Source of the DNA: Eledone cirrhosa
Taxonomy: Eukaryota
Direction: 5' to 3'
Assembly: GCA_964016885.1 (NCBI GenBank)
Contig: OZ024742.1
Coordinates: forward strand, 24,676,001-24,740,000
Length of the DNA: 64,000 nt
Part shown: positions 1,435-30,664 of the stretch, piece after piece
Layout: each line of letters begins with the position of its first letter
How positions within the stretch are numbered: the stretch's first letter is position 1
Notes under the pieces: generated by a model
Databases searched by the model: none
Told to the model about the DNA's origin: nothing
Seen by the model: only the letters and a program-made list of their open reading frames with translations
Position numbers and translations under genes: made by a program

Positions 1435-1468
<34 letters not shown>

Positions 1469-1489
1469 GTCTGTGTGAGATGTGCGATT

Positions 1490-1928
1490 CTGCATAGTAG
1501 TGAGACATGAGCAGCAACTACAGTGGATATGCAACAGCTGGAGAAATGAAGCAAGCATGCTCCGTTGGATGTGCAATGTCAATGTGCATGAACGACCAAG
1601 CATACATGAGTTGAGAGAGAAACTGTGAATAAGAGGAATAAGTTGTAGTGTGTGGGAGAGAAGACTGCATTGGTATGGACATGTGATGCACATGGAGGAT
1701 GACCACTCGGTAAAGAAGTACCAAGATATCCCAGTAGAAAGAAGATGCAGTAGAGGAAGACTACGGAAAACATAGGCGGAGGTGGTGAGAGCGAACCTCA
1801 GATTGCTGAAGCTTACGGAGGAGATGACGAAGGACTGTGAGAAGTGGAGAGATGCTGCGCTGAATAGGACCCATCCCACCTTTGCAAGCAGGAAAAAGCG
1901 GACGTAAATTGATGAGGATGATGATGAT
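1490..1928 (+). mobile_element. Degenerate 3' fragment of an RTE-clade LINE
   Basis: Interrupted 'NEASMLRWMCNV...RRLHWYGHVMHM...RGR' remnant ending in gacgtaaa...(gat)n; similar fragments at ~8255-8515 (+), ~18040-18400 (+), ~23010-23165 (-), ~35715-36075 (-). Confidence 0.8.
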
Positions 1929-2004
1929 ATATATGTCATAAACAGGTAAAATTCCAGAGTAACAAGACTCTCTATTTAGCCTTTATAAAATGAATTTATG
2001 ATAA

Positions 2005-2190
2005 TAACAATGTTTCTACTTTTAGCACAAAACCAGCAGTTATCCCAGTGCATTACTGGTACTTTATTTCATCAACCCCCATAAGGAAGAAAGGTAAAGT
2101 TAACCTCGACGGGATTTGAACTCAGAAAGTAAAGGGCCATAACTCTATGCTGCAAAGTATGGCGTCGTACTTCCCTATACTACCAAACCA
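2005..2190 (-). mobile_element. SINE family B copy
   Basis: Same sequence as 1212-1400 with substitutions. Confidence 0.85.
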
Positions 2191-2227
2191 ATGGGTATAA
2201 ATCCAAGTTGAAGCTACAATATAGCGC

Positions 2228-2261
<34 letters not shown>

Positions 2262-2263
<2 letters not shown>

Positions 2264-3879
2264 GTAGCTTTTGTAGACCTGGAAAAAGCCTTTGACAGAG
2301 TCCCCCACTCCATTATCTGGTGGGCTCTTAGAAAACTAGGTGTAGATGAATGGATGTGAGAGCTATACAAGCTATGTATAATGAAACAGTCAGTAAGGTT
2401 AGAATTAACAATGAATATTGTGAAGAATTTAGTGTAAAAGTTGGTGTTCACCAAGGCTCTGTCCTTAGCTCCCTTCTATTTATTATTGCCCTTCAGGCTA
2501 TAACAGAGGAGTTCAAGACCGGCTGCCTATGGAAACTCCTATACGCAGATGATCTAATGCTCATAGCTGAATCAATGGCTGAACTAGAAAAGAAATTCCA
2601 AACATGGAAACATGGCCTAGAATCAAAAGGCCTTAAAGTTAACTTGTCTAAGACTAAAGTCCTAGTTTGTAGAAAGGAAAATAAGGCACAGGTACCCTCA
2701 GGGAAATGGCCTTGCTCGGTGTGTAGGAAAGGAGTAGGCAGAAATTCAATTTTATGTCCCAAATGCAAAGTATGGGTACATAAAAGATGTAGTGGGATCA
2801 CAGGTAAACTATCTAAGAATGTAGACTTTATATGTTGCCGATGCTCTGGTGCAATAGGTAGCAAGTGTCCACAGGATATTAGGCCCTTCTATTGCCCAGA
2901 TGGTTCTATAGAAATAGTAGACACTTTCTGTTACCTGGGTGATGAAATCAGCAGAGGTGGAGGGTGTTCTGAAAGTACAGTAGCCAGAGTCAGAACGGGA
3001 TGGAAAAAGTTCAGAGAGCTTATACCGCTATTGGCCACAAAAGGTTTCTCTCTAAAAATGAAAGGCAGATTGTATGATGCTTGTATACGAAAAGCAATGC
3101 TACATGGCAGTGAGACATGGGCATTGCATGCAGAGGAAAGGAACAAAGCATGCATGCTCTGTTGGATGTGTAATAGTAACATACGTGAACGGCAAAGCAT
3201 AAATGAACTAAGTGAGAAATTAGGAATAAGAGGGATCAGATGCTGTTTACTCAAGAGAAGACTACGTTGGTATGGCCACGTGATGCGCATGAAAGATGAC
3301 AGCTGTATAAAAAAGTACAGGGCGATCAAAATTGATGGTAGTTACGGAGTAGGTAGACCCAGAAAAACATGGGACGATCTGATAAATTCTGACCTTACAC
3401 ACTTGCACCTCTCTAAGACAATGTCACTGGACCGAGATCTTTGGCGCTACGCAGTAATACAGAAGACCCGCCTTGCCTATGTACAAAGCGAAACCTACAG
3501 TCAGTAGGCACCTCTTAACCAAATATACACCCCAATCCACTACCCCTACCCTATCCTCCCACTCCCACCAACACCACCCCTCTCTATAAAGTTGGTACCA
3601 CAACATCCAGTCCAAATAAATGAGATAAATGAGATCGAGATTGTGTAGGTGTCACGAGAAAAAACACACAGTCCACGCTGTAATGTGACCGTGTAGGTAG
3701 CACGGTAAAAGGTTCCCAGTCCCACACTGTAAATGTGGTTGGTGTTAGGAAGGCATAAAGCCATAGAAACCCTGCCAGATAGTACTATATGAGTGAGACA
3801 CGGTCACCTGACCAACCATGCCTCAAATGGGACAACTCCCGTCTAACCCATGCTAGCGTGGAAAGTGGACATTAAACGA

Positions 3880-3883
<4 letters not shown>
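2262..3883 (+). mobile_element. 5'-truncated RTE-clade LINE (RT C-terminal half plus 3' UTR)
   Basis: 'AFVDLEKAFDRVP' at the start; ORF 2350-3507 has GVHQGSVLS, LLYADD, YLG and RRLRWYGHV motifs; 3' UTR ends 'ggacattaaacga'; colinear with 26470-28040. Confidence 0.95.
2350..3507 (+). pseudogene. Partial RTE reverse transcriptase ORF with an internal Cys/His (PHD-like) finger
   Basis: 385-aa ORF from the track; YADD catalytic motif; C-x2-C...C-x2-C-x4-H-x2-C...C-x2-C insertion; 5' part missing. Confidence 0.9.
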
Positions 3884-3936
<53 letters not shown>

Positions 3937-4027
3937 CATGAAAAGTTATATTTAAAATTGTTGGGTTACAACTAGTAAATATTTATAACTGATATAAAAG
4001 CACTCGACAAATATTTGGAGTATATTT

Positions 4028-5280
4028 ACAATATTAAATAAATGGAAACTATATTTATAAAACCATATTTATTTCATTATATATATTTCAGGGATATCAT
4101 ATTAACAATATGCTATGCCTTCCTCAGACAAAATACAATATAAACAGTTTTATAGATAAATAGATTCGACATACCGTAATAACATCGACTTGCATTTGAA
4201 GAGGTTGATATGGCAGTGAAAAAATTGTACACAGAGAGAAAGAAAGAGAGAAAAAAGAAAGAAAGACAGAAAACGAAGAAAAGGAAGAAAAAGAAGAAAT
4301 GCATGGAACAAAATAGAGAGATGGAAAGATAGATAAAGAGAAGAACTTCATGTAAAGAAACAGAAAGAGATATATATATATATAGAGAGAGGAAATAGAG
4401 ATAGATACATATATATATAGAAAATTAGGTAGTGGGAGGTCTGTTGAGTAAATGTATCAATGATACATTTATTTATTTATTTATTTAGCTCTAGTATTAA
4501 TGTAAGGGAGATATATATAGAGAGAAAAAAATATAGAGAGAGAAAAAATATAGCAAGAGAAAAAATTTAAAAATAACCAGATATATGCGAGGCGCAAAAA
4601 CCCTATGTTTTAATGTAGAGGTATTAGTATTTATAAAACATCCACTATATTGTAAATATCAGTATTCCTGAATGAGACAAGTATCCATAGTGTGTGAAAA
4701 TTAATGAACTTATGTTTAGTTTTTTAAAAAAATTCACATGTTTATGTAATAGCTACAAACATCCATGTGAATCTACATGATCAATTCTGCAAAGCCTAAG
4801 TTCACGGAAAACATTCTCAATGTGGTATAAAAATTTGAGTATACATATATGAGTATTATTATTCCTGTCTTTACTCTACAAGATTATCTATCAAGCAGAA
4901 ATAGAGAGCAGATTTCAATATACTAATAAAAATATATATCAGAAACAAAACTAAAAAATAACAATAATAATAATAAGTAATAATAAAATAGAAAACTAAA
5001 AAAATATTACGAAAGAATATTACATATTAAAAATATTACGTATTAAAAAATTTACTTATTAAAAATATTAAAAATAAAAATATTAGAAAATACTACAATA
5101 ATAAAAAAAAATAATATTAGAAAATACTACAATAATAAAAAAAATTAAAATAAACCACAAAGATCAACCCTTCAAAATTAATTGACAATATATTGCCAAG
5201 TTCATTATAAGCATCAGAGTCGAAAAACAGACAAAGCCAAAAATTATCTATCAAATCACATCTAGCAAAGATCATTTCAA
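4028..5280 (-). repeat. Left arm of a ~1.25-kb inverted repeat (inverted pLTR)
   Basis: Reverse complement of 6066-7316 with only a handful of substitutions seen by eye; mirrored ORFs 4124-4351(-) and 6993-7178(+) give the same peptide. Confidence 0.97.
4070..4135 (-). ncRNA. Type I minimal hammerhead ribozyme (intact core)
   Basis: Minus strand: UAUUUUGU-CUGAGGA-AGGCAUAGCAUAUUGUUAAUAUGAUAUCCCU-GAAA-UAUAUA-UA-AUGAAAUA. Has CUGANGA and GAAA cores; stem II closed by AGG/CCU with an inner CAUAUU/AAUAUG hairpin; palindromic stem III; 8-bp stem I with 2 G-U pairs. Confidence 0.8.
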
Positions 5281-5830
5281 TAGACATACAATAAAATTAA
5301 CCTACTCATCCACCAAAAATTTAGCACAAAATATTAATAGAATAAATAATAGGAACTTAAAACCTAGTGATAATAGCATAAATAATATACAAGTTAACAA
5401 ATGTAACTGTAGAGATAGATCTAAATGTCCGTTAAATAACAACTGCTTAGTTAAAAATATAGTATACAATTGTAATGTTAATACTGACTCTAATTCTTTT
5501 AACTACGTCGGTTCCACATCGACGGAATTTAAACTTCGCTATAATAACCACAAGAATTCTTTCACAGATCCAAGCAAAAAATCCTCAACGGCACTATCAG
5601 GCGTACTCTGGCAACTTAAGCTAGATAACGTTAGATATTCGACGGCTTGGAATATAGTCTCAAGAGGGATTCCTTTTAATTCATCCTCTGAGACATGTGA
5701 CCTCTGCGCAGAGGAGATATTCTTTATACTAAAATCTAAAAATTCCCTTAATCTACGGACAAATTTATTCAGTTGTTGCAAACATAGATTAAACTCAACG
5801 TTTAAATATAAATTTAAATTTAAAATGTAG
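5276..5830 (+). pseudogene. PLE C-terminal linker plus GIY-YIG endonuclease (open frame, no start codon, 5'-truncated)
   Basis: Manual translation: FNRHTIKLTYSSTKNL...KCNCRDRSKCPLNNNCLVKNIVYNCNV...FNYVGSTSTEFKLRYNNHKNSF...TALSGVLWQLK...AWNIV...CDLCAEEIFFILKSKNSLNLRTNLFSCCKHR...KFKM* (TAG ends at 5830). IVY/YVG dyad plus the conserved R, H, E and N positions of PLE GIY-YIG domains. Confidence 0.9.
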
Positions 5831-6065
5831 TATATTTAGTTTGATTTATATTTATATGGGAAACTAGCCGATAAATCTTTGATTCCTTCTTTTTATTCTT
5901 TTTTATTTTTTATTTTAATTTTATTTTTATTTAATCATTCCTCATGAAAAATTAAGCTACCCTAAAAGCTGATGCTCCAAATATTTCGAATAAACGTTAC
6001 ACTAGATAAACTTCTATATTAAATATAAGAACACATGTAGACCAAATTTGGGCATCCTAAACTTT

Positions 6066-7908
<1,843 letters not shown>

Positions 7909-24559: not shown

Positions 24560-27500
24560 TGGACTAGGGAATTCTGGAGAGTCTGAAAAATCTGAACACT
24601 CAGTGACAATGCCAAAGATAAAGACAAATTCACCTCATGCTGCCGGACGAAAAGGCAAGGACTCCTCCTATTTATTTCGGCCGCGGATGGCCAACATAAC
24701 CCCAGCCCCGCGCCCCACCATTTCCACCCACCAAACGCAATCCAAAACTTCAGAGTTGGCACCTTAAAAGGTCGCTCTAACGAGGTTGTAGAAATGCTTG
24801 AACGTAAGGAGGTTAATATTTGCTGTATCCAAGAGACCAGGTGGAGGGGTGGGTCTGCTAGATTCATTATGGGTAAAAAACGATGCTAAAAGATTTTCTG
24901 GGTGCGAAATGACAATGGGCTGGGTGGGTAGGAATCATGTTAGCAGAAAAATGGGTAGATAAGATAATAGATGTAAATAGAGTGAACGATAGAATAATTA
25001 AAATAAGACCTGTCCGAAATAGAACTACTGTGACAATAATATCGGCGTACGCGCCCCAATCCGGACTGCCTAGCGTTATAAAGACAGATTCTATGAGACA
25101 TTGATGCTCACTACCTCCCAAATAACCGACAGTGACTACATAATTATTGCTGGCGACCTAAATGGTCATGTTGGACAACATTGTGATGGCTATGACGGAA
25201 TCCATGGAGGCTATGGGTTTGGTACTAGAAATGAGGAAGGCTCCACAATCCTGGAATTCTGTGATGCAAATAACCTAACTATCTGTAACACTAGCTTCTA
25301 AAAACGAGACAATCACTTGATCAGGGGAACACGCCAGTCAGATACATTATATCCTTACCAGAGGACGAGATAGAGTGTCTGTTGTAAACACTAAATCCCT
25401 CCCCCATGAAGAATGCACCTCCCAACATAGACTCATAGTCAGCGACCTCATAGTCAGGACAAGACGTACTCGACAACACAGCCAGTAATAAATTTAAAAG
25501 CATATTACTTGATGCTTTTGACAGTAAGGAAGAGCAATTAGAGTCGTACAATATAGAGGAACAGTGGGTATTCCTGAAAGCTAACCTGCTAAAGGTGGCA
25601 GATGAAGTCTGTGGCTGGAGCAGGCCTATAGGCATGAGGAGAGTAACGTGGTGGTGGAACAGTAAGGTGAAGGAGTCAATTAAGGCCAAAAAGCAGGTTT
25701 GGAAAGTATGGCGGGATGGGGGAAGCAGAGAAGACTATCAAATGGCCAGGAGGGAAGCTAGGAGACAAGTGTACTTCGCAAGAAGGGAAACAGGAAAGAA
25801 AGTTCAAGCATGTTCTACAACGCGATGACCAAAAATGCGAGGTGTTCAGGATTGCTAGGCAATGTATCAAGGAAAACCGTGATATTGTCGGGGAGAAGTG
25901 TGTCCTTAATGATGATGGTGGACTTGCCATCACTGACGCTGATAAGAAGGTAGCTTGGAAGTGTCACTACGAAAGGCTACTAAATGAGGAGAATAAATGG
26001 GAGAAAGACAGTCTACCCCACATCGATCCAATAGAGGGACCAACAGTGCAAGTTGAAGGTAGTATAATAAGTAAGGCAATCAAAGATATGAAGACGGGTA
26101 AGGCGGCTGGGCCTTCGGAAATAGTTGCTGAAATGCTGAAAGCATCTGGAACGGTGGGATACACTATGGTCACCCGGATAGTAAACCAAGTCATACAGAA
26201 TGGGGTCGTTCCGAAGGACTGGCGTAGCATCATCATCATTAACTGCTACAAGGGTAAAGGAGATGCTCTAGACAGGTGTAACTATAGAGGCATTAAATTA
26301 ATCGACCAGGTCATGAAGGTCACAGAAAAAGTAATAGCGCAACTAATCAGAGAGCGAATTGATCTAGATGAAATGCAGTTCGGGTTTGTGTCAGGTAAAA
26401 GTACAACAGACGCTCTTTTCATTGAACGACAACTACAGGAGAAGTACCTAGCTAAAAGTAATCCCCTATACTTAGCTTTTGTTGAGTTGGAGAAAGCCTT
26501 TGACAGAGTCCCCCGAATGGCTTGTGAGAGCTATACAAGCCATGTATAAAGAAACAGTGAGCAAGGTTAGAATTAACAACGAATATAGTGAAGAGTTTAG
26601 CGTAAAAGTTGCTGTCCATCAGGGCTCCGTTCTTAGCCCTGTACTATTTATTATTGCCCTTCAGGCTATAACAGAGGAGTTCAAGACCGGCTGCCCATGG
26701 GAACTCCTATACGCAGATGATCTAACGCTCAAAGCTGAATCAATGGTTGAACTAGAGAAGAAATTCCAAACATGGAAGCATGGCCTAGAATCAAAAGGCC
26801 TTAAAATTAACCTGTCTAAGACTAAAGTTATAGTTTGCAGGAAAGAAAATAGGGCACCGGTCCCATCTGGGAAATGGCTATGCTCAGTGTGTAGGAAAGG
26901 AGTAGGCAGAACTCCATTTTATGTCCCATATGCAAAGTATGGGTGCATAAAAGATGTAGTGGGATCACAGGTAAGCTAACTAAGAATATAGATTTTATAT
27001 GTGGCCGGTGCTCTGGTGCAATAAGTAGCAGCAAGTGCCCACAGAATACGAGCTCATTCCATTGCACAGATGGTTCTATAGAAATAGTGAACACCTTCCG
27101 TTACTTGGGTGACAAAATCGGCAGTGGTGGAGGGTGCTCTGAAAGTACAGTAGCTAGAGTCAGAACAGGATGGAAAAGTTCAGAGAGTTTATACTACTAT
27201 TGGCCGCTAAAGGGTTCTCTCTAAAAATGAAAGGCAGGCTGTATGATGCTTGCATACGAACAGCAATGTTACATGGCAGTGAGACCTGGGCATTGTGTGC
27301 AGAGGATATACGCAGACTGGAGAGGAACGAAGCTTGTATGCTCTACTGGATGTGTAATAGTAATATACGTGAACGGCAAAGCATAAACAAACTAAGGGAG
27401 AAATTAGGAATAAGAGGGATCAGATGTTGTTTACTCGAGAGAAGACTACGTTGGTACGGTCACGTGATGCGCATGAAAGACGACAACTGTATAAAAAGTA

Positions 27501-28040
27501 CAGGGCGATAAAAATAGATGGTAGCCACGGAGTAGGCAGACCCAGAAAAATCTTGGATGACTTGATAAATTCCGACCTCACACACTTACACCTCTCAAAG
27601 ACAATGTCACTGGACCGAGATCTTTGGCGCTACACAGTAATACAGAAGACCCACCTTGCCTAAGTACAAAGCGTAAGCTACAGTCAGTAGTCACCTCTTA
27701 CAAAATACACCCCCATCCCACTACCCCCACCCCACCCACACCACCCCTTTAAATGTGAAGTTATGTTGGTACCACAACATCCAGTCCGAAACAAATGAGA
27801 TCGTGTAGGTGTCACGACAAAAAAACACAGTCCACGCTGTAATGTGGCTGTGTAGGTAACACGGTAAAAACCTTCCAGTCCACACTGTAAACGTGGTTAG
27901 TGTTAGGAAGGGCGTCCAGCCGTAGAAAACCCGCCAGACAGTCCTATACGAGCAAGACAACCAATCTTGCCTCAAGTGGGAACATTCCCGTCCAAACCCA
28001 TGCAAGCATGGAAGATGGACGTTAAACGATGATGATGATC
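24560..28040 (+). mobile_element. Near full-length but frameshifted RTE-clade LINE (APE endonuclease, RT, PHD-like finger, 3' UTR)
   Basis: APE motifs FRVGTL, CIQETRW, SAYAPQ, AGDLNGHVG; RT motifs KGKGDALDRCNYRGIKL, QFGF, EKAFDRV, HQGSVLSP, LLYADD, YLG; split over at least seven partial frames; (gat)n tail; probable ATG at 24609. 5' boundary approximate. Confidence 0.95.
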
Positions 28041-30166
28041 ATCATGACGACACACACACATGCACGCGCGCGTTCTAATTTTACTTGTTCATATATTAAT
28101 GGTTCTTAATTAAACTATTTAACTATTAACACCATCTAATGATTTAGCAGAAAATATCTAAAAACTTATTTGCTAGTTCAAATACTTATAGTATCATTAC
28201 TAGTAGACAGATTGTTGGGAGAATTTGTAGTATTAGAGTAAAGACTTAAGTTTTAATGTGATGCAGTCATGATAACTTCTAACAAATGAGCAACAGCATT
28301 GACAGTTACTTCCCCTGGTTTTGCTGAGACTAAGGATGTGTGATGGTGGTCACAACTTTTTAAAAAATCCATAGCAGAAGGCTGTCAAATATTTTTCATA
28401 AACATCCTATAAACATGTACAGCCATGTTTGTATAGGGGAGAAATATACAGAATCTGTTAAAATGTTACCAGACATGTAGAAGTAATATTTGGACTGGAA
28501 TAGGAAATAAAATGTTCACAGCTATTCTAGGTATGTAAACTAAGTTACTTTCTATATGTTTTGTATCTACTTTTCAAGAATGTTTTGTTAATGCAGTTTC
28601 ATATTGTACAGTATGTTAAAAGTTAATGTTGCCATATATCCAATGTGATATCCAGTTTCTATTTCCTGAATCTGGCACACATGTTCTTCAAATGGCAGAA
28701 ATGCTAAGTTCTGATTATTTAAAATCATTGAAGCTGAAATATGGATTTGGTTCACTGATTCACTTGTCTCTGTTTAGATAATTCTGTGTTTTTAAATTCT
28801 TCACTTTTGTTTTAGTGCCAATGTTTCAACGTATTAGCAGAAGGTATTATGTATTTCTTGAGACTATTTCCGATGCTATTTGGCTACCAAAATTGATTCC
28901 ATTAGGAAATGTCTATTTCTTGTGAGATGGTTAAGTGGATAAACTATTGGATTAAACATCTAGAGTGGCTTAGGACTTGTAATCTTCTGCAGCTTTCTCA
29001 TGGTTATCGGCATAAACAAAGTTTCAGAGGCTTTCTCTTTATTGTCTAGTTGGGGAGAGAAGGGATTCTTTAGTTGGGGCCACAGGATAAGGTGCCATGG
29101 CTGATGTCTTCAAACAGATGATCTGTTTTGAATACTGGCAACAGTGTAGGATCCATTAAAGGCACCCCTGGGCTAGATGGTGATGTTAAACTGGGTAATG
29201 GCTTCAAGTTTACCACCCAAGTAAAATACAGCTGGATTTGAACTCCGAATGCAAAGATCCAGAACAAATACTCTACTGATGCTCTAACAATTTCACTGGA
29301 TTGGTGCTTTATTTTCTTGACCCCTAAAAAGATGAAATGTAAATTTGACCATTGTAAGATTTGAAGATAGTGGGTTGTAATCCTGAACAAATTTCATCTA
29401 TGTTCTAAGATCCTTCTCCTCCTCATCATCATTTGAAACTCTTTTCCCTGCAGACATATGTTGGACGGTTTGCCAGGTTCTAAATCCAGATAGCCAGGGT
29501 AATCCATCTTGTTATATTCCATATCTAGAATATGTTTTCTGGATGGATGCCCTTCTTAATTCCAACTGCTTTGCAGGGTGTACTAGGTGCATTTTTCATA
29601 GCATCAGCACTGCCACTTTAAAGAGTGCACTGACTGCATTTTATCAGGCAGCAACACTAACATTTTCCATAGTGTAATAGATTCATTTTATTTTGGCACC
29701 AACACTAAAGAAGTTGTCACATGTTATGCCAGACAGAAGAGTCCTCACAGACCCTAAACTATTTCCATTTAATCGCCAAATATTGTAATTTCTGGTCTCT
29801 CATCATATTTATTTCTACTGTTATAGTGTCTGTAATGGCATATATATATATATATATATGTTGTACCAACTATTTTGATGCTATAAACATATGGTTTTTA
29901 TAATATAAGTATGTCTCTTTTGTTTTGAAGTTGTTTGCTGTCTAGACAATGTTATACCAATACAAGATAATTTATTTCAATATTTCAGAAACACAAGTAT
30001 ATTTATAAGACTTATGCTTACTGGTGACTAATGACTGTCTTAATTTACTAATTAACCATTTTAATTATGTTAATTGGCATTTGTTTTCCTTTGTAATATG
30101 AAACTACAGCCTTAGCATGTTTTTCTTCTAAAATGTATGTTTCCTTGCAATGCTAACTTAATATAC

Positions 30167-30521
30167 TATATATTTCGTTTCTGAATTTGTTTAGCAAGAT
30201 TCTTTATCTGAAATCGTGTGTTGAAACCGGATGTGGCGCATGTGCAGACTGAGCACACAACACACACACAGAAACAAAATGGCGTAGGACAGAACAAAGG
30301 AGAGGCACATAAACAAAGAAAGGAATCCCCAGTCACTGAAGAGGTCACAGAGTGTGTGACGAAAGAACTATGACTATATATAAACAAATATCTGGTTGTG
30401 GAACCAACCAACCAACCAGAAATTTATAAATTTATAAATTTATAAATATATAATAAATTGAAGTGAAAGCAACTGGTGCGTGCGTTTCTTATTGGCAACA
30501 TGACCCTCCCAAAGTATAACA
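30167..30521 (+). mobile_element. Solo LTR-like/pLTR-like unit carrying a hammerhead motif
   Basis: Ends in ...TATAACA; flanked by ATAC (extendable to a 12-bp direct repeat atactatatatt at 30163 and 30522); TATATAAA ~30377 and AATAAA ~30452; the 5' TG is not intact. Confidence 0.55.
30331..30375 (+). ncRNA. Type I minimal hammerhead ribozyme (near-canonical)
   Basis: AGUCA-CUGAAGA-G-GUCACA-gagug-UGUGAC-GAAA-GAAC-UA-UGACU: perfect 5-bp stem I and 6-bp stem II (one unpaired G), very short stem III. Confidence 0.72.
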
Positions 30522-30664
30522 ATACTATATATTATTATACCTAAATATAATTTGTATGATGCAAAATGTGGTTTTTAGCCTGTATAAGCATTGAACTGTT
30601 TATGGTGTAATATGATTTAAATAATTTTATTTTGATCTATATGTATGATATATATACGTGTGTG

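What the first reader, a model, noticed from the sequence alone, without database searches (positions are those of the whole stretch)
30163..30533. ~350-bp LTR-like unit with an embedded hammerhead: possible animal LTR-retrozyme or ribozyme-bearing solo LTR
Seen: AGUCA-CUGAAGA-(G)GUCACA/UGUGAC-GAAA-GAAC-UA-UGACU at 30331-30375, directly followed by a TATA-like box and then AATAAA; terminus TATAACA; ATAC (or 12-bp atactatatatt) repeated on both sides; CCGGATGT (ETS-like) and AAAATGGCG (YY1-like) motifs upstream. Known: plant retrozymes have ~300-400-bp hammerhead-containing LTRs with 4-bp TSDs and yield circular RNAs, whereas described animal retrozymes are non-LTR tandem repeats. Inference: a solo LTR of a hammerhead-bearing LTR element, or alternatively a solo PLE pLTR. 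The sequence is unrelated to the PLE at 4-7 kb.
Basis: partly seen in the sequence, partly recalled or inferred. Interest (0 to 1): 0.75.

Follow-up and report, generated by a model that had tools for sequence, protein, structure and literature searches.

The report
Truncated Penelope retrotransposon end with hammerhead
This ~350-base unit is a broken-off tail end of an abundant Penelope-like jumping gene that carries the small hammerhead RNA motif typical of that class (its self-cutting is predicted, not tested), so it is an ordinary repeat and not a new kind of animal LTR retrozyme.

Summary
My motif scanner found 1 hit in the window and 0 in 100 simulated windows.

The unit is not an LTR. 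Window 30227-30524 is the last 298 bp of a ~4.06-kb Penelope-like element (PLE). [quoted passage not shown]

Window ~30170-30229 is an inverted copy of the element's ~60-nt "tail". A 12-nt direct repeat flanks the whole unit, so this is a 5'-truncated, two-armed insertion.

The family is very abundant:
- 26,960 exact copies of its 3' end in the 3.0-Gb genome.
- 15,450 intact hammerhead cores, counting a sister family.

The hammerhead matches the published PLE "min-HHR" architecture. The sister family keeps the fold with compensatory changes in three base pairs.

No RNA evidence was available, and no excess of copy 5' ends lies at the predicted cleavage site.

Side results: in 25 of 27 two-armed insertions exactly one arm carries the tail, and A-to-G hyperedited copies share their edits between both arms.

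The parts
30163..30174 (.). Left copy of the flanking direct repeat ATACTATATATT (target-site duplication, 4-12 bp; its last 5 letters could equally be the end of the tail).
30170..30229 (-). Inverted arm: a reverse-complement copy of the element's ~60-nt 3' 'tail' (the L053 1128-1187 equivalent). It joins the direct arm through the shared letters CCG/CGG at 30227-30229.
   Evidence: The same piece lies in direct orientation after ...GTATAACAATAT in 14 of 29 other copies.
30227..30524 (+). Direct arm: the 3'-terminal 298 bp (3' UTR, also the pLTR) of the Penelope-like element. It is 5'-truncated and lacks its own tail, and is 97% identical to the copy in L053.
30237..30246 (+). CGCATGTGCA, a one-letter-decayed copy of CGCATGCGCA. 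That motif is kept in the pLTRs of both PLE families. The name 'NRF1-like' is recalled from memory, not tested.
30276..30284 (+). It is kept as AAAATGGCGTAG in both PLE families although the surrounding UTR does not align. Its function is inferred.
30331..30375 (+). PLE-type minimal type-I hammerhead motif: helix I 5 bp, core CUGAAGA, unpaired G, helix II 6 bp with loop GAGUG, GAAA, helix III of 2 bp with loop AA. The predicted cut lies after A30370.
   Evidence: architecture compared with PMC4209133.
30375..30384 (+). TATATATAAA run directly after the hammerhead. ACTATATATA is kept in both families.
30420..30453 (+). (AAATTTAT)x4.2 internal tandem repeat of the pLTR.
30499..30523 (+). Conserved 3' end CATGACCCTCCCAAAGTATAACAAT, the likely entry site for reverse transcription (inferred). 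The sister family keeps it with one change.
   Evidence: 26,960 exact genome copies, reversed-pattern control 0.
30522..30533 (.). Right copy of the flanking direct repeat ATACTATATATT.

Best explanation
[quoted passage not shown] It was likely made by target-primed reverse transcription on both strands of an AT-rich target.

Shown:
- The direct arm (30227-30524) is the last 298 bp of a ~4.06-kb unit with the order tail, leader, RT-EN ORF, 3' UTR.
- In partial tandems this 3' UTR also lies upstream of the next ORF, which is what defines a pseudo-LTR.
- The left arm is an inverted copy of the unit's ~60-nt tail.
- A 4-12-bp target duplication flanks the pair.
- The hammerhead at 30331-30375 has the architecture published for PLE minimal hammerheads. 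The sister PLE family (family 2) keeps the fold with compensating base-pair changes.

Inferred:
- The two arms come from reverse transcription started at two neighbouring internal sites (the end of the UTR and the end of the tail), one on each nicked target strand. They were joined through the CCG/CGG microhomology.
- In transcripts of tandem copies the hammerhead would cut after UA (A30370), probably only as a dimer or with protein help. In this lone copy, with a 2-bp helix III, it is probably inert.
- The conserved CGCATGCGCA, AAAATGGCG and TATA-like letters would belong to the pLTR's internal promoter.
For: Element structure and coding:
- Longer copies continue upstream of 30227 into an ORF with YVDD, and with CX4CX2C followed by VVYSIRC...YIGET...ERINEH.
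- L053 shows the partial tandem: 1-1127 equals 4074-5186 at 98%, then tail 1128-1187, ORF 1444-4803, UTR 4904-5186, then (TA)n.
- ORF relatives: 169 proteins at E<=0.001. The best named one is an Octopus vulgaris protein at 70% identity.
- Among 25 aligned relatives, 8 touch Pfam RVT_1 and 2 touch GIY-YIG.
- The EN-domain model (pLDDT 82) has GIY-YIG nucleases as its 11 best PDB matches. I-TevI is first, with probability 1.00 and TM 0.73 by target, though E=0.004.

Three kinds of 3' end among 29 other copies:
- 14 with the tail.
- 11 without the tail.
- 4 with an inverted tail at the 5' side, like the window.

Unbiased sample of 100 family-1 3' ends:
- 79 are 5'-truncated.
- 54 lie in 27 pairs with 3' ends outward, against 2 neighbours of the opposite order.
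- 4 of the 19 lone truncated copies that lack a tail of their own have an inverted tail piece like the window's.

Hammerhead:
- The genome pattern gave 7,673+7,777 hits, and the reversed-pattern control gave 0+0.
- The structure count found 91.7% of cells paired, and 3 pairs changed on both sides between family 1 and family 2.
- The family-2 hammerhead is identical in 34 instances across subfamilies whose UTRs are ~89% alike.

Literature:
- PMC4209133 (parts 1-2 of 4 read) describes PLE min-HHRs with helix II of 6-8 bp, helix I of 4-5 bp, an unpaired nucleotide between 9 and 10.1, G10.1-C11.1, and a tiny helix III.
- PMC8557442 (passages) describes 5' truncation, partial tandems, inverted adjacent copies, a tail at one end, and (TA)n targets.
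- PMC11167929 (main text read) reports two internal RT start sites that delimit the tail, cleavage and extension of both strands, and AT-rich targets.
Against: - No Rfam hammerhead model matches, even at E<=10 on 501 bases.
- Pfam on the element's own ORF gives only RVT_1 at E=0.003, below its cut-off, and no GIY-YIG.
- The PDB sequence profile finds only weak RT hits.
- The fold-search E-values do not reach 0.001.
- The isolated 49-nt RNA folds into helices I and II, but its energy is unremarkable (z = -1.3). In a 101-nt context helix I is lost.
- Family-1 copies are young (93-99% alike), so their conservation says little.
- The compensating changes amount to one event per pair, between two lineages only.
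- Loop 3 of family 1 (AA or GA) is not palindromic, unlike the published criterion.
- Copy 5' ends show no excess at the predicted cleavage site: 2 of 100 within 4 nt, 0.96 expected, P=0.25.
- The tail is ~60 nt here, against 30-40 nt in the papers.
- Which strand was primed where is inferred and cannot be read from this one copy.
Confidence: 0.9

Rival explanations
1. Solo LTR of a hammerhead-bearing LTR element, that is, an animal counterpart of plant LTR retrozymes.
For: - The unit is ~350 bp, contains a hammerhead, and has promoter-like and AATAAA letters.
- It is flanked by a short direct repeat.
- It is multi-copy.
Against: - Upstream of 30227, longer copies run straight into an RT plus GIY-YIG ORF, not into an LTR end.
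- The left 60 nt are an inverted piece of the element's own tail.
- 5' ends are scattered, with 79 of 100 truncated at many places.
- 3' ends abut (TA)n with or without the tail.
- No paired direct copies around a non-coding interior were seen. Same-strand spacings in the first 100 hammerhead hits are 1.57 kb or more, and regular ones are ~4.08-4.15 kb, the size of the coding unit.
Confidence: 0.02
2. A non-autonomous, retrozyme- or SINE-like mini-element (inverted tail plus pLTR, or pLTR alone) that is transcribed from its own promoter and copied in trans by the PLE protein. On this reading the window copy descends from a short RNA, not from a truncated cDNA of the full element.
For: - 5' ends of truncated copies pile up at reference 866-884 (window 30262-30280), just before AAAATGGCG. 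That is 11 of 100, with 2.04 expected and P about 1e-5. This would fit a preferred RNA 5' end.
- Window-type copies recur: 4 of 29 and 4 of 100.
- bioRxiv 10.64898/2026.07.22.740005 (abstract and section 14 read) derives vertebrate non-LTR retrozymes from PLE pLTRs.
Against: - The window's direct arm starts at reference 831, not in the hot spot. Only 2 of 100 start at 827-835.
- The inverted-arm junctions of the window, L002, L009, L019 and L020 all differ, so they are separate events and not copies of one master.
- The hot spot lies in a CA-rich stretch that could equally favour joining by microhomology.
- There are no short tandem arrays.
- No RNA data are available.
Confidence: 0.05
3. A solo pLTR left by recombination between the two pLTRs of a once complete tandem insertion.
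For: Partial tandems with 98% identical pLTRs exist, so the substrate for such recombination is present.
Against: - Recombination would leave a pLTR with the upstream copy's own 5' boundary. It would not leave an inverted tail joined by a 3-nt microhomology.
- The two-armed, one-tail layout is the same as in 25 of 27 insertion pairs of all sizes.
Confidence: 0.03

Closest known systems
EN+ Penelope-like elements with C-terminal GIY-YIG endonuclease and both zinc-finger-like motifs (Neptune / Nematis type; Craig et al. 2021, PMC8557442, passages read)
   Same: - A single RT-EN ORF.
- A CX2-5CxxC linker (here C-x4-C-x2-C) and two Cys inside the GIY-YIG core followed by His...His.
- Pseudo-LTRs formed by partial tandems.
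- Frequent 5' truncation and inverted adjacent copies.
- A tail at one end, (TA)n or AT-rich targets, and a hammerhead in the pLTR.
   Different: - The clade was not settled by a tree.
- The tail is ~60 nt, not 30-40.
- The family itself was not found described in the papers searched. Their supplementary family lists were not opened.
Minimal hammerheads (min-HHR) of metazoan PLEs (Cervera and de la Pena 2014, PMC4209133, parts 1-2 of 4 read)
   Same: - Type-I order.
- Cores CUGANGA and GAAA.
- An unpaired nucleotide between A9 and G10.1, and a G10.1-C11.1 pair.
- A long helix II (6 bp), a short helix I (5 bp) and a minute helix III.
- Location in the pLTR, mostly as single motifs in truncated copies, and close pairs on opposite strands.
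   Different: - Loop 3 of this family (AA or GA) is not palindromic. The sister family's AU is.
- The paper stresses extreme within-genome variability. Here two young families dominate with nearly uniform motifs, as that paper reports for D. virilis.
Poseidon element PAc of Anolis carolinensis (Frangieh et al. 2024, PMC11167929, main text read)
   Same: - Two neighbouring internal 3' boundaries that delimit the tail.
- AT-rich targets.
- Products on both target strands.
- No sign that hammerhead-cut RNA is the template.
   Different: - In PAc the hammerhead overlaps the ORF start and RT starts 111-118 nt inside the ORF. Here the hammerhead lies ~150 nt before the UTR end and ~465 nt before the ORF frame opens.
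- The in-vitro work saw no strand difference in start site. Here 25 of 27 two-armed insertions carry the tail on exactly one arm.
Plant LTR retrozymes (Cervera et al. 2016, PMC4918200; seen only as a search listing, features otherwise recalled) and metazoan non-LTR retrozymes
   Same: A hammerhead within a ~300-400-bp repeat unit that also looks promoter-like.
   Different: - No LTR pair, no PBS/PPT and no non-coding interior.
- No short tandem array.
- The unit is the end of a coding PLE.

Membership tests
Penelope-like element (EN+) | Reverse transcriptase domain in the single ORF | tested here: met
   - YVDD motif in L004 and L053 ORFs.
- Pfam RVT_1 at E=0.003 on the ORF, below its cut-off, and in 8 of 25 relatives.
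- The PDB profile hits only reverse transcriptases (E=1e-5).
- The PLE/telomerase-like subtype was not tested by a tree.
Penelope-like element (EN+) | C-terminal GIY-YIG endonuclease | tested here: met
   - Motifs VVYSIRC...IVYIGET...R...ERINEH after the RT.
- Invariant Y97, Y113 and G115 in 32 aligned relatives.
- The AlphaFold model (pLDDT 82) has GIY-YIG nucleases as its 11 best PDB matches. I-TevI scores E=0.004, probability 1.00, TM by target 0.73.
- Pfam GIY-YIG is found only in 2 of 25 relatives.
Penelope-like element (EN+) | Pseudo-LTRs from partial tandem insertion | tested here: met
   - L053 1-1127 equals 4074-5186 at 98%.
- Same-strand hammerhead spacings of 4,083 bp (family 1) and 4,145-4,147 bp (family 2).
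Penelope-like element (EN+) | Optional 'tail' extension at one end; inverted 5'-truncated copies | tested here: met
   - 49 of 100 3' ends have the ~60-nt tail.
- There are 27 inverted pairs, and 25 of them carry the tail on exactly one arm.
- The window has the tail only on its inverted arm.
Penelope-like element (EN+) | Clade (Neptune, Nematis, Penelope/Poseidon, Hydra) | not tested
   Only motif reading: the CX4CX2C linker and CC..HH are present, which the text of PMC8557442 ascribes to Neptune/Nematis. No reference sequences were at hand for a tree.
PLE minimal hammerhead (min-HHR) | Conserved core C3-A9, G12-A14, A15.1-U16.1, H17 in type-I order | tested here: met
   -.
- The core columns are invariant in 24 distinct variants, except in visibly decayed copies.
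PLE minimal hammerhead (min-HHR) | Nucleotide between 9 and 10.1; G10.1-C11.1; long helix II; short helix I | tested here: met
   - An unpaired G (family 1) or U (family 2).
- G-C closing pair in 23 of 24 variants.
- Helix II of 6 bp with 95.8% of cells paired.
- Helix I of 5 bp in family 1, and only 2+1 bp in family 2.
PLE minimal hammerhead (min-HHR) | Palindromic 15.2-16.2 and loop 3 (dimer formation) | tested here: inconclusive
   G15.2-C16.2 is present. Loop 3 is AA or GA in family 1 (not palindromic) and AU in family 2 (palindromic).
PLE minimal hammerhead (min-HHR) | Self-cleavage | not testable with these tools
   - No RNA holder was listed.
- Only contigs of unknown kind could be laid.
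Rfam hammerhead families | Score against the covariance models | tested here: not met
   No hammerhead hit at gathering score or at E<=10 on 30100-30600. No Rfam family gave a match to this motif.
LTR retrozyme (plant type) | Two direct hammerhead LTRs around a non-coding interior with PBS and PPT, and a 4-bp TSD | tested here: not met
   - The unit continues into an RT-EN ORF.
- There is no second direct copy in the window.
- The left end is an inverted tail.
- The defining features are recalled, not read.
Metazoan non-LTR retrozyme | Short head-to-tail tandem array of hammerhead units | tested here: not met
   - There is no array of that period at 29-32 kb.
- None of the first 100 genome hits has a same-strand neighbour closer than 1,570 bp.

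The most novel reading that the evidence does not exclude
Each two-armed PLE insertion is copied from one single RNA molecule, from two neighbouring internal start sites, with one start site used on each target strand. The window's copy is the minimal case: one arm holds the tail alone and the other holds 298 bp without it.

Supporting footprints:
- Exactly one arm carries the tail in 25 of 27 pairs (binomial P about 2e-6 against independent choice).
- In two A-to-G hyperedited pairs (L218, L176) both arms share the same sense-strand edits. The arms are 97-98% alike to each other but 83-87% alike to the family.
- For L218 the only close match in the genome is its own partner arm.

If true, ordinary genome sequence would give an in-vivo read-out of the still unsolved PLE integration mechanism.
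Probability: 0.35. Interest if true: 0.5.

Novelty: new member of a known kind. Interest (0 to 1): 0.2.

Why it matters
For the finding as posed, it matters little. It removes a candidate "animal LTR retrozyme" and files the unit as an ordinary truncated Penelope-like element with the hammerhead type already described for that class.

The family is nevertheless useful material. It is young and very abundant: about 27,000 3' ends, and many intact ORFs in the sister family. Its copies preserve clean junctions.

Three open questions about PLE integration can therefore be addressed by counting copies in this genome:
- Why tails sit at one end of an insertion.
- How inverted arms arise.
- Whether the hammerhead-cut RNA is the template.

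My small samples already indicate three things:
- A one-tail-per-insertion rule.
- A single-template origin for both arms.
- No use of hammerhead-cut RNA as template.

Tried and rejected
- **Rfam:** no match at gathering score on the whole window. At E<=10 on 30100-30600 only chance-level non-hammerhead rows appeared.
- **RNA evidence:** no RNA holder was listed for 30227-30524.
- **Laying runs:** The third laid contigs of four runs of unknown kind. Contigs cannot show RNA ends or strand, so nothing on expression or cleavage follows. They did show:
  - very high word depth;
  - letters differing at a fifth or more of the depth within the motif only at loop 2 (30352), loop 3 (30366, 30367), H17 (30370 A>T) and the outer helix-I pair (30375).

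  By my rough estimate the absence of such sites from 31 constrained positions has P of about 0.07, which is not significant.
- **Endonuclease by sequence:** Pfam on the ORF, PHROGs and a PDB sequence profile did not name it. The protein atlas gave only a lead, with GIY-YIG on 13-19% of members of neighbouring clusters.
- **Third helix-II type:** a pattern requiring a purine-pyrimidine pair at the third helix-II position found 0 hits. Covariation therefore rests on two lineages.
- **Thermodynamics:** unremarkable.
- **Following-polymerase idea:** I asked whether the tail-bearing arm is the shorter one. It was rejected. By my count it is shorter in 11 pairs, longer in 7, and equal or not determinable in 7.
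- **Cleaved-RNA-as-template idea:** rejected for lack of 5' ends at the cut site, 2 of 100 against 0.96 expected.
- **Earlier notes of this scan:** nothing by place or by sequence.
Full report
**1. Observation**

Read as RNA, 30331-30375 gives these parts:
- Helix I: AGUCA pairing with UGACU.
- Core: CUGAAGA.
- One unpaired G.
- Helix II: GUCACA pairing with UGUGAC, with loop GAGUG.
- GAAA.
- A 2-bp helix III (A-U, G-C) with loop AA.
- U-A before the predicted cut after A30370.

A scanner I wrote for this architecture finds this one site in the 64-kb window and none in 100 first-order-Markov simulated windows.

The 12-mer ATACTATATATT occurs only at 30163-30174 and 30522-30533, against 0.09 expected by chance.

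Against the motif:
- Rfam reports no hammerhead at gathering score, nor at E<=10 on 501 bases.
- The 49-nt RNA folds into helices I and II, but with an unremarkable energy (z = -1.3). In a 101-nt context helix I is lost.

**2. What the unit is**

The stretch is highly repeated in the window's own 3.0-Gb genome, with 961 first-look candidates.

*The direct part, 30227-30524.* Other copies match this stretch and continue upstream. They run into an ORF that reads ...YSRYVDDINIVV... and then ...C-x4-C-x2-C...VVYSIRCTEGQC...IVYIGETARSVGERINEH.... That is a reverse transcriptase followed by a GIY-YIG endonuclease.

*The left part, up to 30229.* This is the reverse complement of a ~60-nt piece. In 14 of the 29 copies that piece follows ...GTATAACAATAT in direct orientation. 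A further 11 copies lack it and run into (AT)n. The remaining 4 have it inverted at the 5' side, as the window does.

*A complete copy.* L053 shows the whole layout:
- A 5'-truncated upstream copy, 1-1127, 98% identical to 4074-5186.
- The tail, 1128-1187.
- A leader.
- The ORF, 1444-4803 (292 + 827 codons with one stop).
- The 3' UTR, 4904-5186.
- (TA)n.

In partial tandems that UTR becomes a pseudo-LTR.

**3. Protein evidence**

- The ORF has 169 relatives at E<=0.001. The best named one is an Octopus vulgaris protein at 70% identity.
- Pfam touches RVT_1 only weakly on the ORF.
- Among 25 aligned relatives, 8 touch RVT_1 and 2 touch GIY-YIG.
- A model of the last 200 residues (pLDDT 82) has GIY-YIG nucleases as its 11 best PDB matches. 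I-TevI is first (probability 1.00, TM 0.73 by target length), but at E=0.004, so none reaches 0.001.
- The CX4CX2C linker and two Cys inside the GIY-YIG core are invariant in 32 aligned relatives. The passages of PMC8557442 that I read ascribe these motifs to the Neptune and Nematis clades. I made no tree.

**4. The hammerhead**

Cervera and de la Pena (PMC4209133, parts 1-2 of 4 read) describe the minimal hammerheads of metazoan PLEs as follows:
- type I;
- helix II of 6-8 bp;
- helix I of 4-5 bp;
- an unpaired nucleotide between A9 and G10.1;
- a conserved G10.1-C11.1 pair;
- a minute helix III;
- location in the pLTR;
- weak activity in vitro, probably as dimers.

The window's motif fits each point except a palindromic loop 3.

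Genome-wide, the pattern CTGANGANGTN{10,16}ACGAAAGNNYTATG has 7,673 + 7,777 hits, and the reversed control has 0 + 0. By my count the first 100 listed hits are 61 of the window's type and 39 of a second type.

That second type belongs to a sister PLE family. Its ORF is ~72% identical in DNA and its UTR mostly does not align. It reads CA-CUGACGA-U-GUUGCA-GAUG-UGCAAC-GAAA-GAUU-UA-UG.

On 24 distinct variants the structure is paired in 91.7% of cells. Three pairs changed on both sides between the families:
- helix II C-G to U-A;
- helix II A-U to G-C;
- helix I G-C to A-U.

These are single events between two lineages, so the support is real but thin. A search for a third helix-II type found nothing. 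Within the sister family the 38-nt motif is identical in 34 instances across subfamilies whose UTRs are ~89% alike.

Besides the hammerhead, three other islands are shared by both families:
- CGCATGCGCA;
- AAAATGGCGTAG;
- the 3' end ATGACCCTCCC(A/C)AAGTATAACAAT.

**5. How the window's copy arose (partly inferred)**

The direct arm ends at ...CAAT(A) without a tail. The inverted arm is the tail alone. The arms meet at AAACCG|GATG, where CCG/CGG fits both. The flanking repeat allows a target duplication of 4-12 bp, because tail end, UTR end and target share AT letters.

To see whether this layout is typical, I sampled without bias. The exact 3'-end 25-mer has 13,484 + 13,476 genome hits, with control 0. 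I fetched all of the first 100 places and mapped them on the natural copy L053 1-1260.

Results for the 100 ends:

| Measure | Count |
|---|---|
| Long copies | 21 |
| 5'-truncated copies | 79 |
| Ends with the tail | 49 |
| Ends without the tail | 51 |
| Ends in (-,+) pairs, 3' ends outward, within 4 kb | 54 (27 pairs) |
| (+,-) neighbours within 4 kb | 2 |
| Pairs with the tail on exactly one arm | 25 of 27 |
| Pairs with the tail on both arms | 2 |
| Pairs with the tail on neither arm | 0 |

The one-tail result has a binomial P of about 2e-6 against independent choice.

Of 31 lone truncated copies, 12 have their own tail and 19 have none. Among those 19, 4 carry an inverted tail piece at the 5' side like the window. 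Among the 12 with their own tail, none does.

This is the picture drawn in PMC8557442. It also matches the biochemistry of PMC11167929 (main text): two neighbouring internal RT start sites that delimit the tail, cleavage and extension of both strands, and AT-rich targets. I therefore read the window's copy as one such event, with one very short arm.

**6. Does the hammerhead leave a footprint?**

If hammerhead-cut RNA were the usual template, copy 5' ends should pile up at reference 975 (window 30371). They do not: 2 of 100 within 4 nt, 0.96 expected, P = 0.25.

This agrees with the in-vitro finding that cutting is not needed for insertion.

5' ends do cluster elsewhere:
- 11 at reference 866-884 (window 30262-30280), just before AAAATGGCG. 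Expected 2.04, P about 1e-5.
- 5 at the 5' edge of the hammerhead. Expected 1.29, P = 0.01.

The first cluster could mark an RNA 5' end from a pLTR promoter, or joining favoured by the CA-rich letters there. I cannot tell which.

Of the 63 copies in the sample that span the motif, at least 39 are intact by a strict test. This is a lower bound, because some motifs fell outside my slice.

**7. RNA**

No RNA run was listed. Contigs of four runs of unknown kind could be laid on 30140-30417. They say nothing about expression.

**8. Comparison and novelty**

This is a member of a known kind. It is an EN+ Penelope-like element whose pLTR carries a PLE-type minimal hammerhead, seen here as a truncated two-armed copy. 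It is not an LTR retrozyme, and it is not a tandem non-LTR retrozyme.

A 2026 preprint derives vertebrate non-LTR retrozymes from PLE pLTRs.

My literature searches found no paper that describes hammerheads in cephalopod PLEs:
- Penelope-like, hammerhead, pLTR.
- Penelope, octopus, hammerhead.
- The Octopus vulgaris repeat paper lists Penelope-like elements but has no occurrence of "ribozyme" in its main text.

Supplementary lists were not opened. Hence my rating is "new member of a known kind", with low interest.

**9. Side results worth keeping**

Two two-armed copies (L218, L176) carry dense sense-strand A-to-G changes on both arms: 43 of 57 and 31 of 41 mismatches in L218. The arms are 97-98% alike to each other. 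Among the 40 best-scored genome places, the only close match to an L218 arm is its own partner arm. The next best match is 83%.

Both arms thus stem from one edited template. Together with the one-tail rule this suggests that one RNA is copied from two start sites, one per target strand. This is the boldest reading my data allow, and it is not shown.

Earlier notes of this scan on the same genome report A-to-G-marked Penelope fold-backs and two-armed hammerhead repeats. They agree with these side results, but they are unchecked AI notes.

Noticed in passing
Genome sample, C1 0-19.5 Mb (loci L115-L139, L170-L224): In 25 of 27 inverted (3'-ends-out) insertion pairs of this PLE family exactly one arm carries the ~60-nt tail (both arms in 2, neither in 0). 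Binomial P is about 2e-6 against independent choice.
   Followed up: partly
L218 121-863 and L176 47-2392: Two-armed copies with dense sense-strand A-to-G changes on both arms (L218: 43 of 57 and 31 of 41 mismatches). The arms are 97-98% alike to each other but 83-87% alike to the family. The L218 arm's only close genome match is its partner arm. This looks like RNA hyperediting fixed by reverse transcription of a single template.
   Followed up: partly
Reference L053 866-884, equal to window 30262-30280: Hot spot of copy 5' ends (11 of 100; 2.04 expected) just upstream of the conserved AAAATGGCG box. It could be a pLTR transcription start or microhomology joining in a CA-rich stretch.
   Followed up: partly
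window 30237-30246 and 30276-30284; L053 841-850; L058 1763-1772: CGCATGCGCA and AAAATGGCGTAG are kept in the pLTRs of both PLE families although the rest of the UTR hardly aligns. They are candidate promoter elements (the names NRF1-like and YY1-like are recalled, not tested).
   Followed up: partly
window 4113-7231: A 214-codon frame (5186-5830) with GIY-YIG-like letters (IVYNC...YVGST...RYNNH) lies between ~340-bp inverted repeats (4113-4456 and 6888-7231). It has no Pfam or PHROG name and no similarity to the PLE family studied here.
   Followed up: no
L019 395-432 (-) and 537-574 (+): A canonical type-I hammerhead (CUGAUGAGUCC...GGACGAAAC) is present twice as the arms of an inverted repeat. 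It belongs to a different hammerhead family of this genome.
   Followed up: no
L103 509-553 and L105 5047-5089: A third hammerhead type with a palindromic CUAG helix III. The two copies differ by a compensating change in helix II (GUUGU/ACAAC against GAUGU/ACAUC).
   Followed up: no
G000 C1:14381865-14394339 (-): Four sister-family hammerheads spaced 4,145-4,147 bp apart, that is, a head-to-tail array of full units. Many sister-family ORFs are open for up to 1,217 codons, so that family looks recently active.
   Followed up: no
window 2350-3507 and 25454-27511: Two related LINE-type reverse transcriptase frames (…LLYADDL…). The finding lies in repeat-rich DNA, with no host ORF of 110 codons or more within 24-37 kb.
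   Followed up: no
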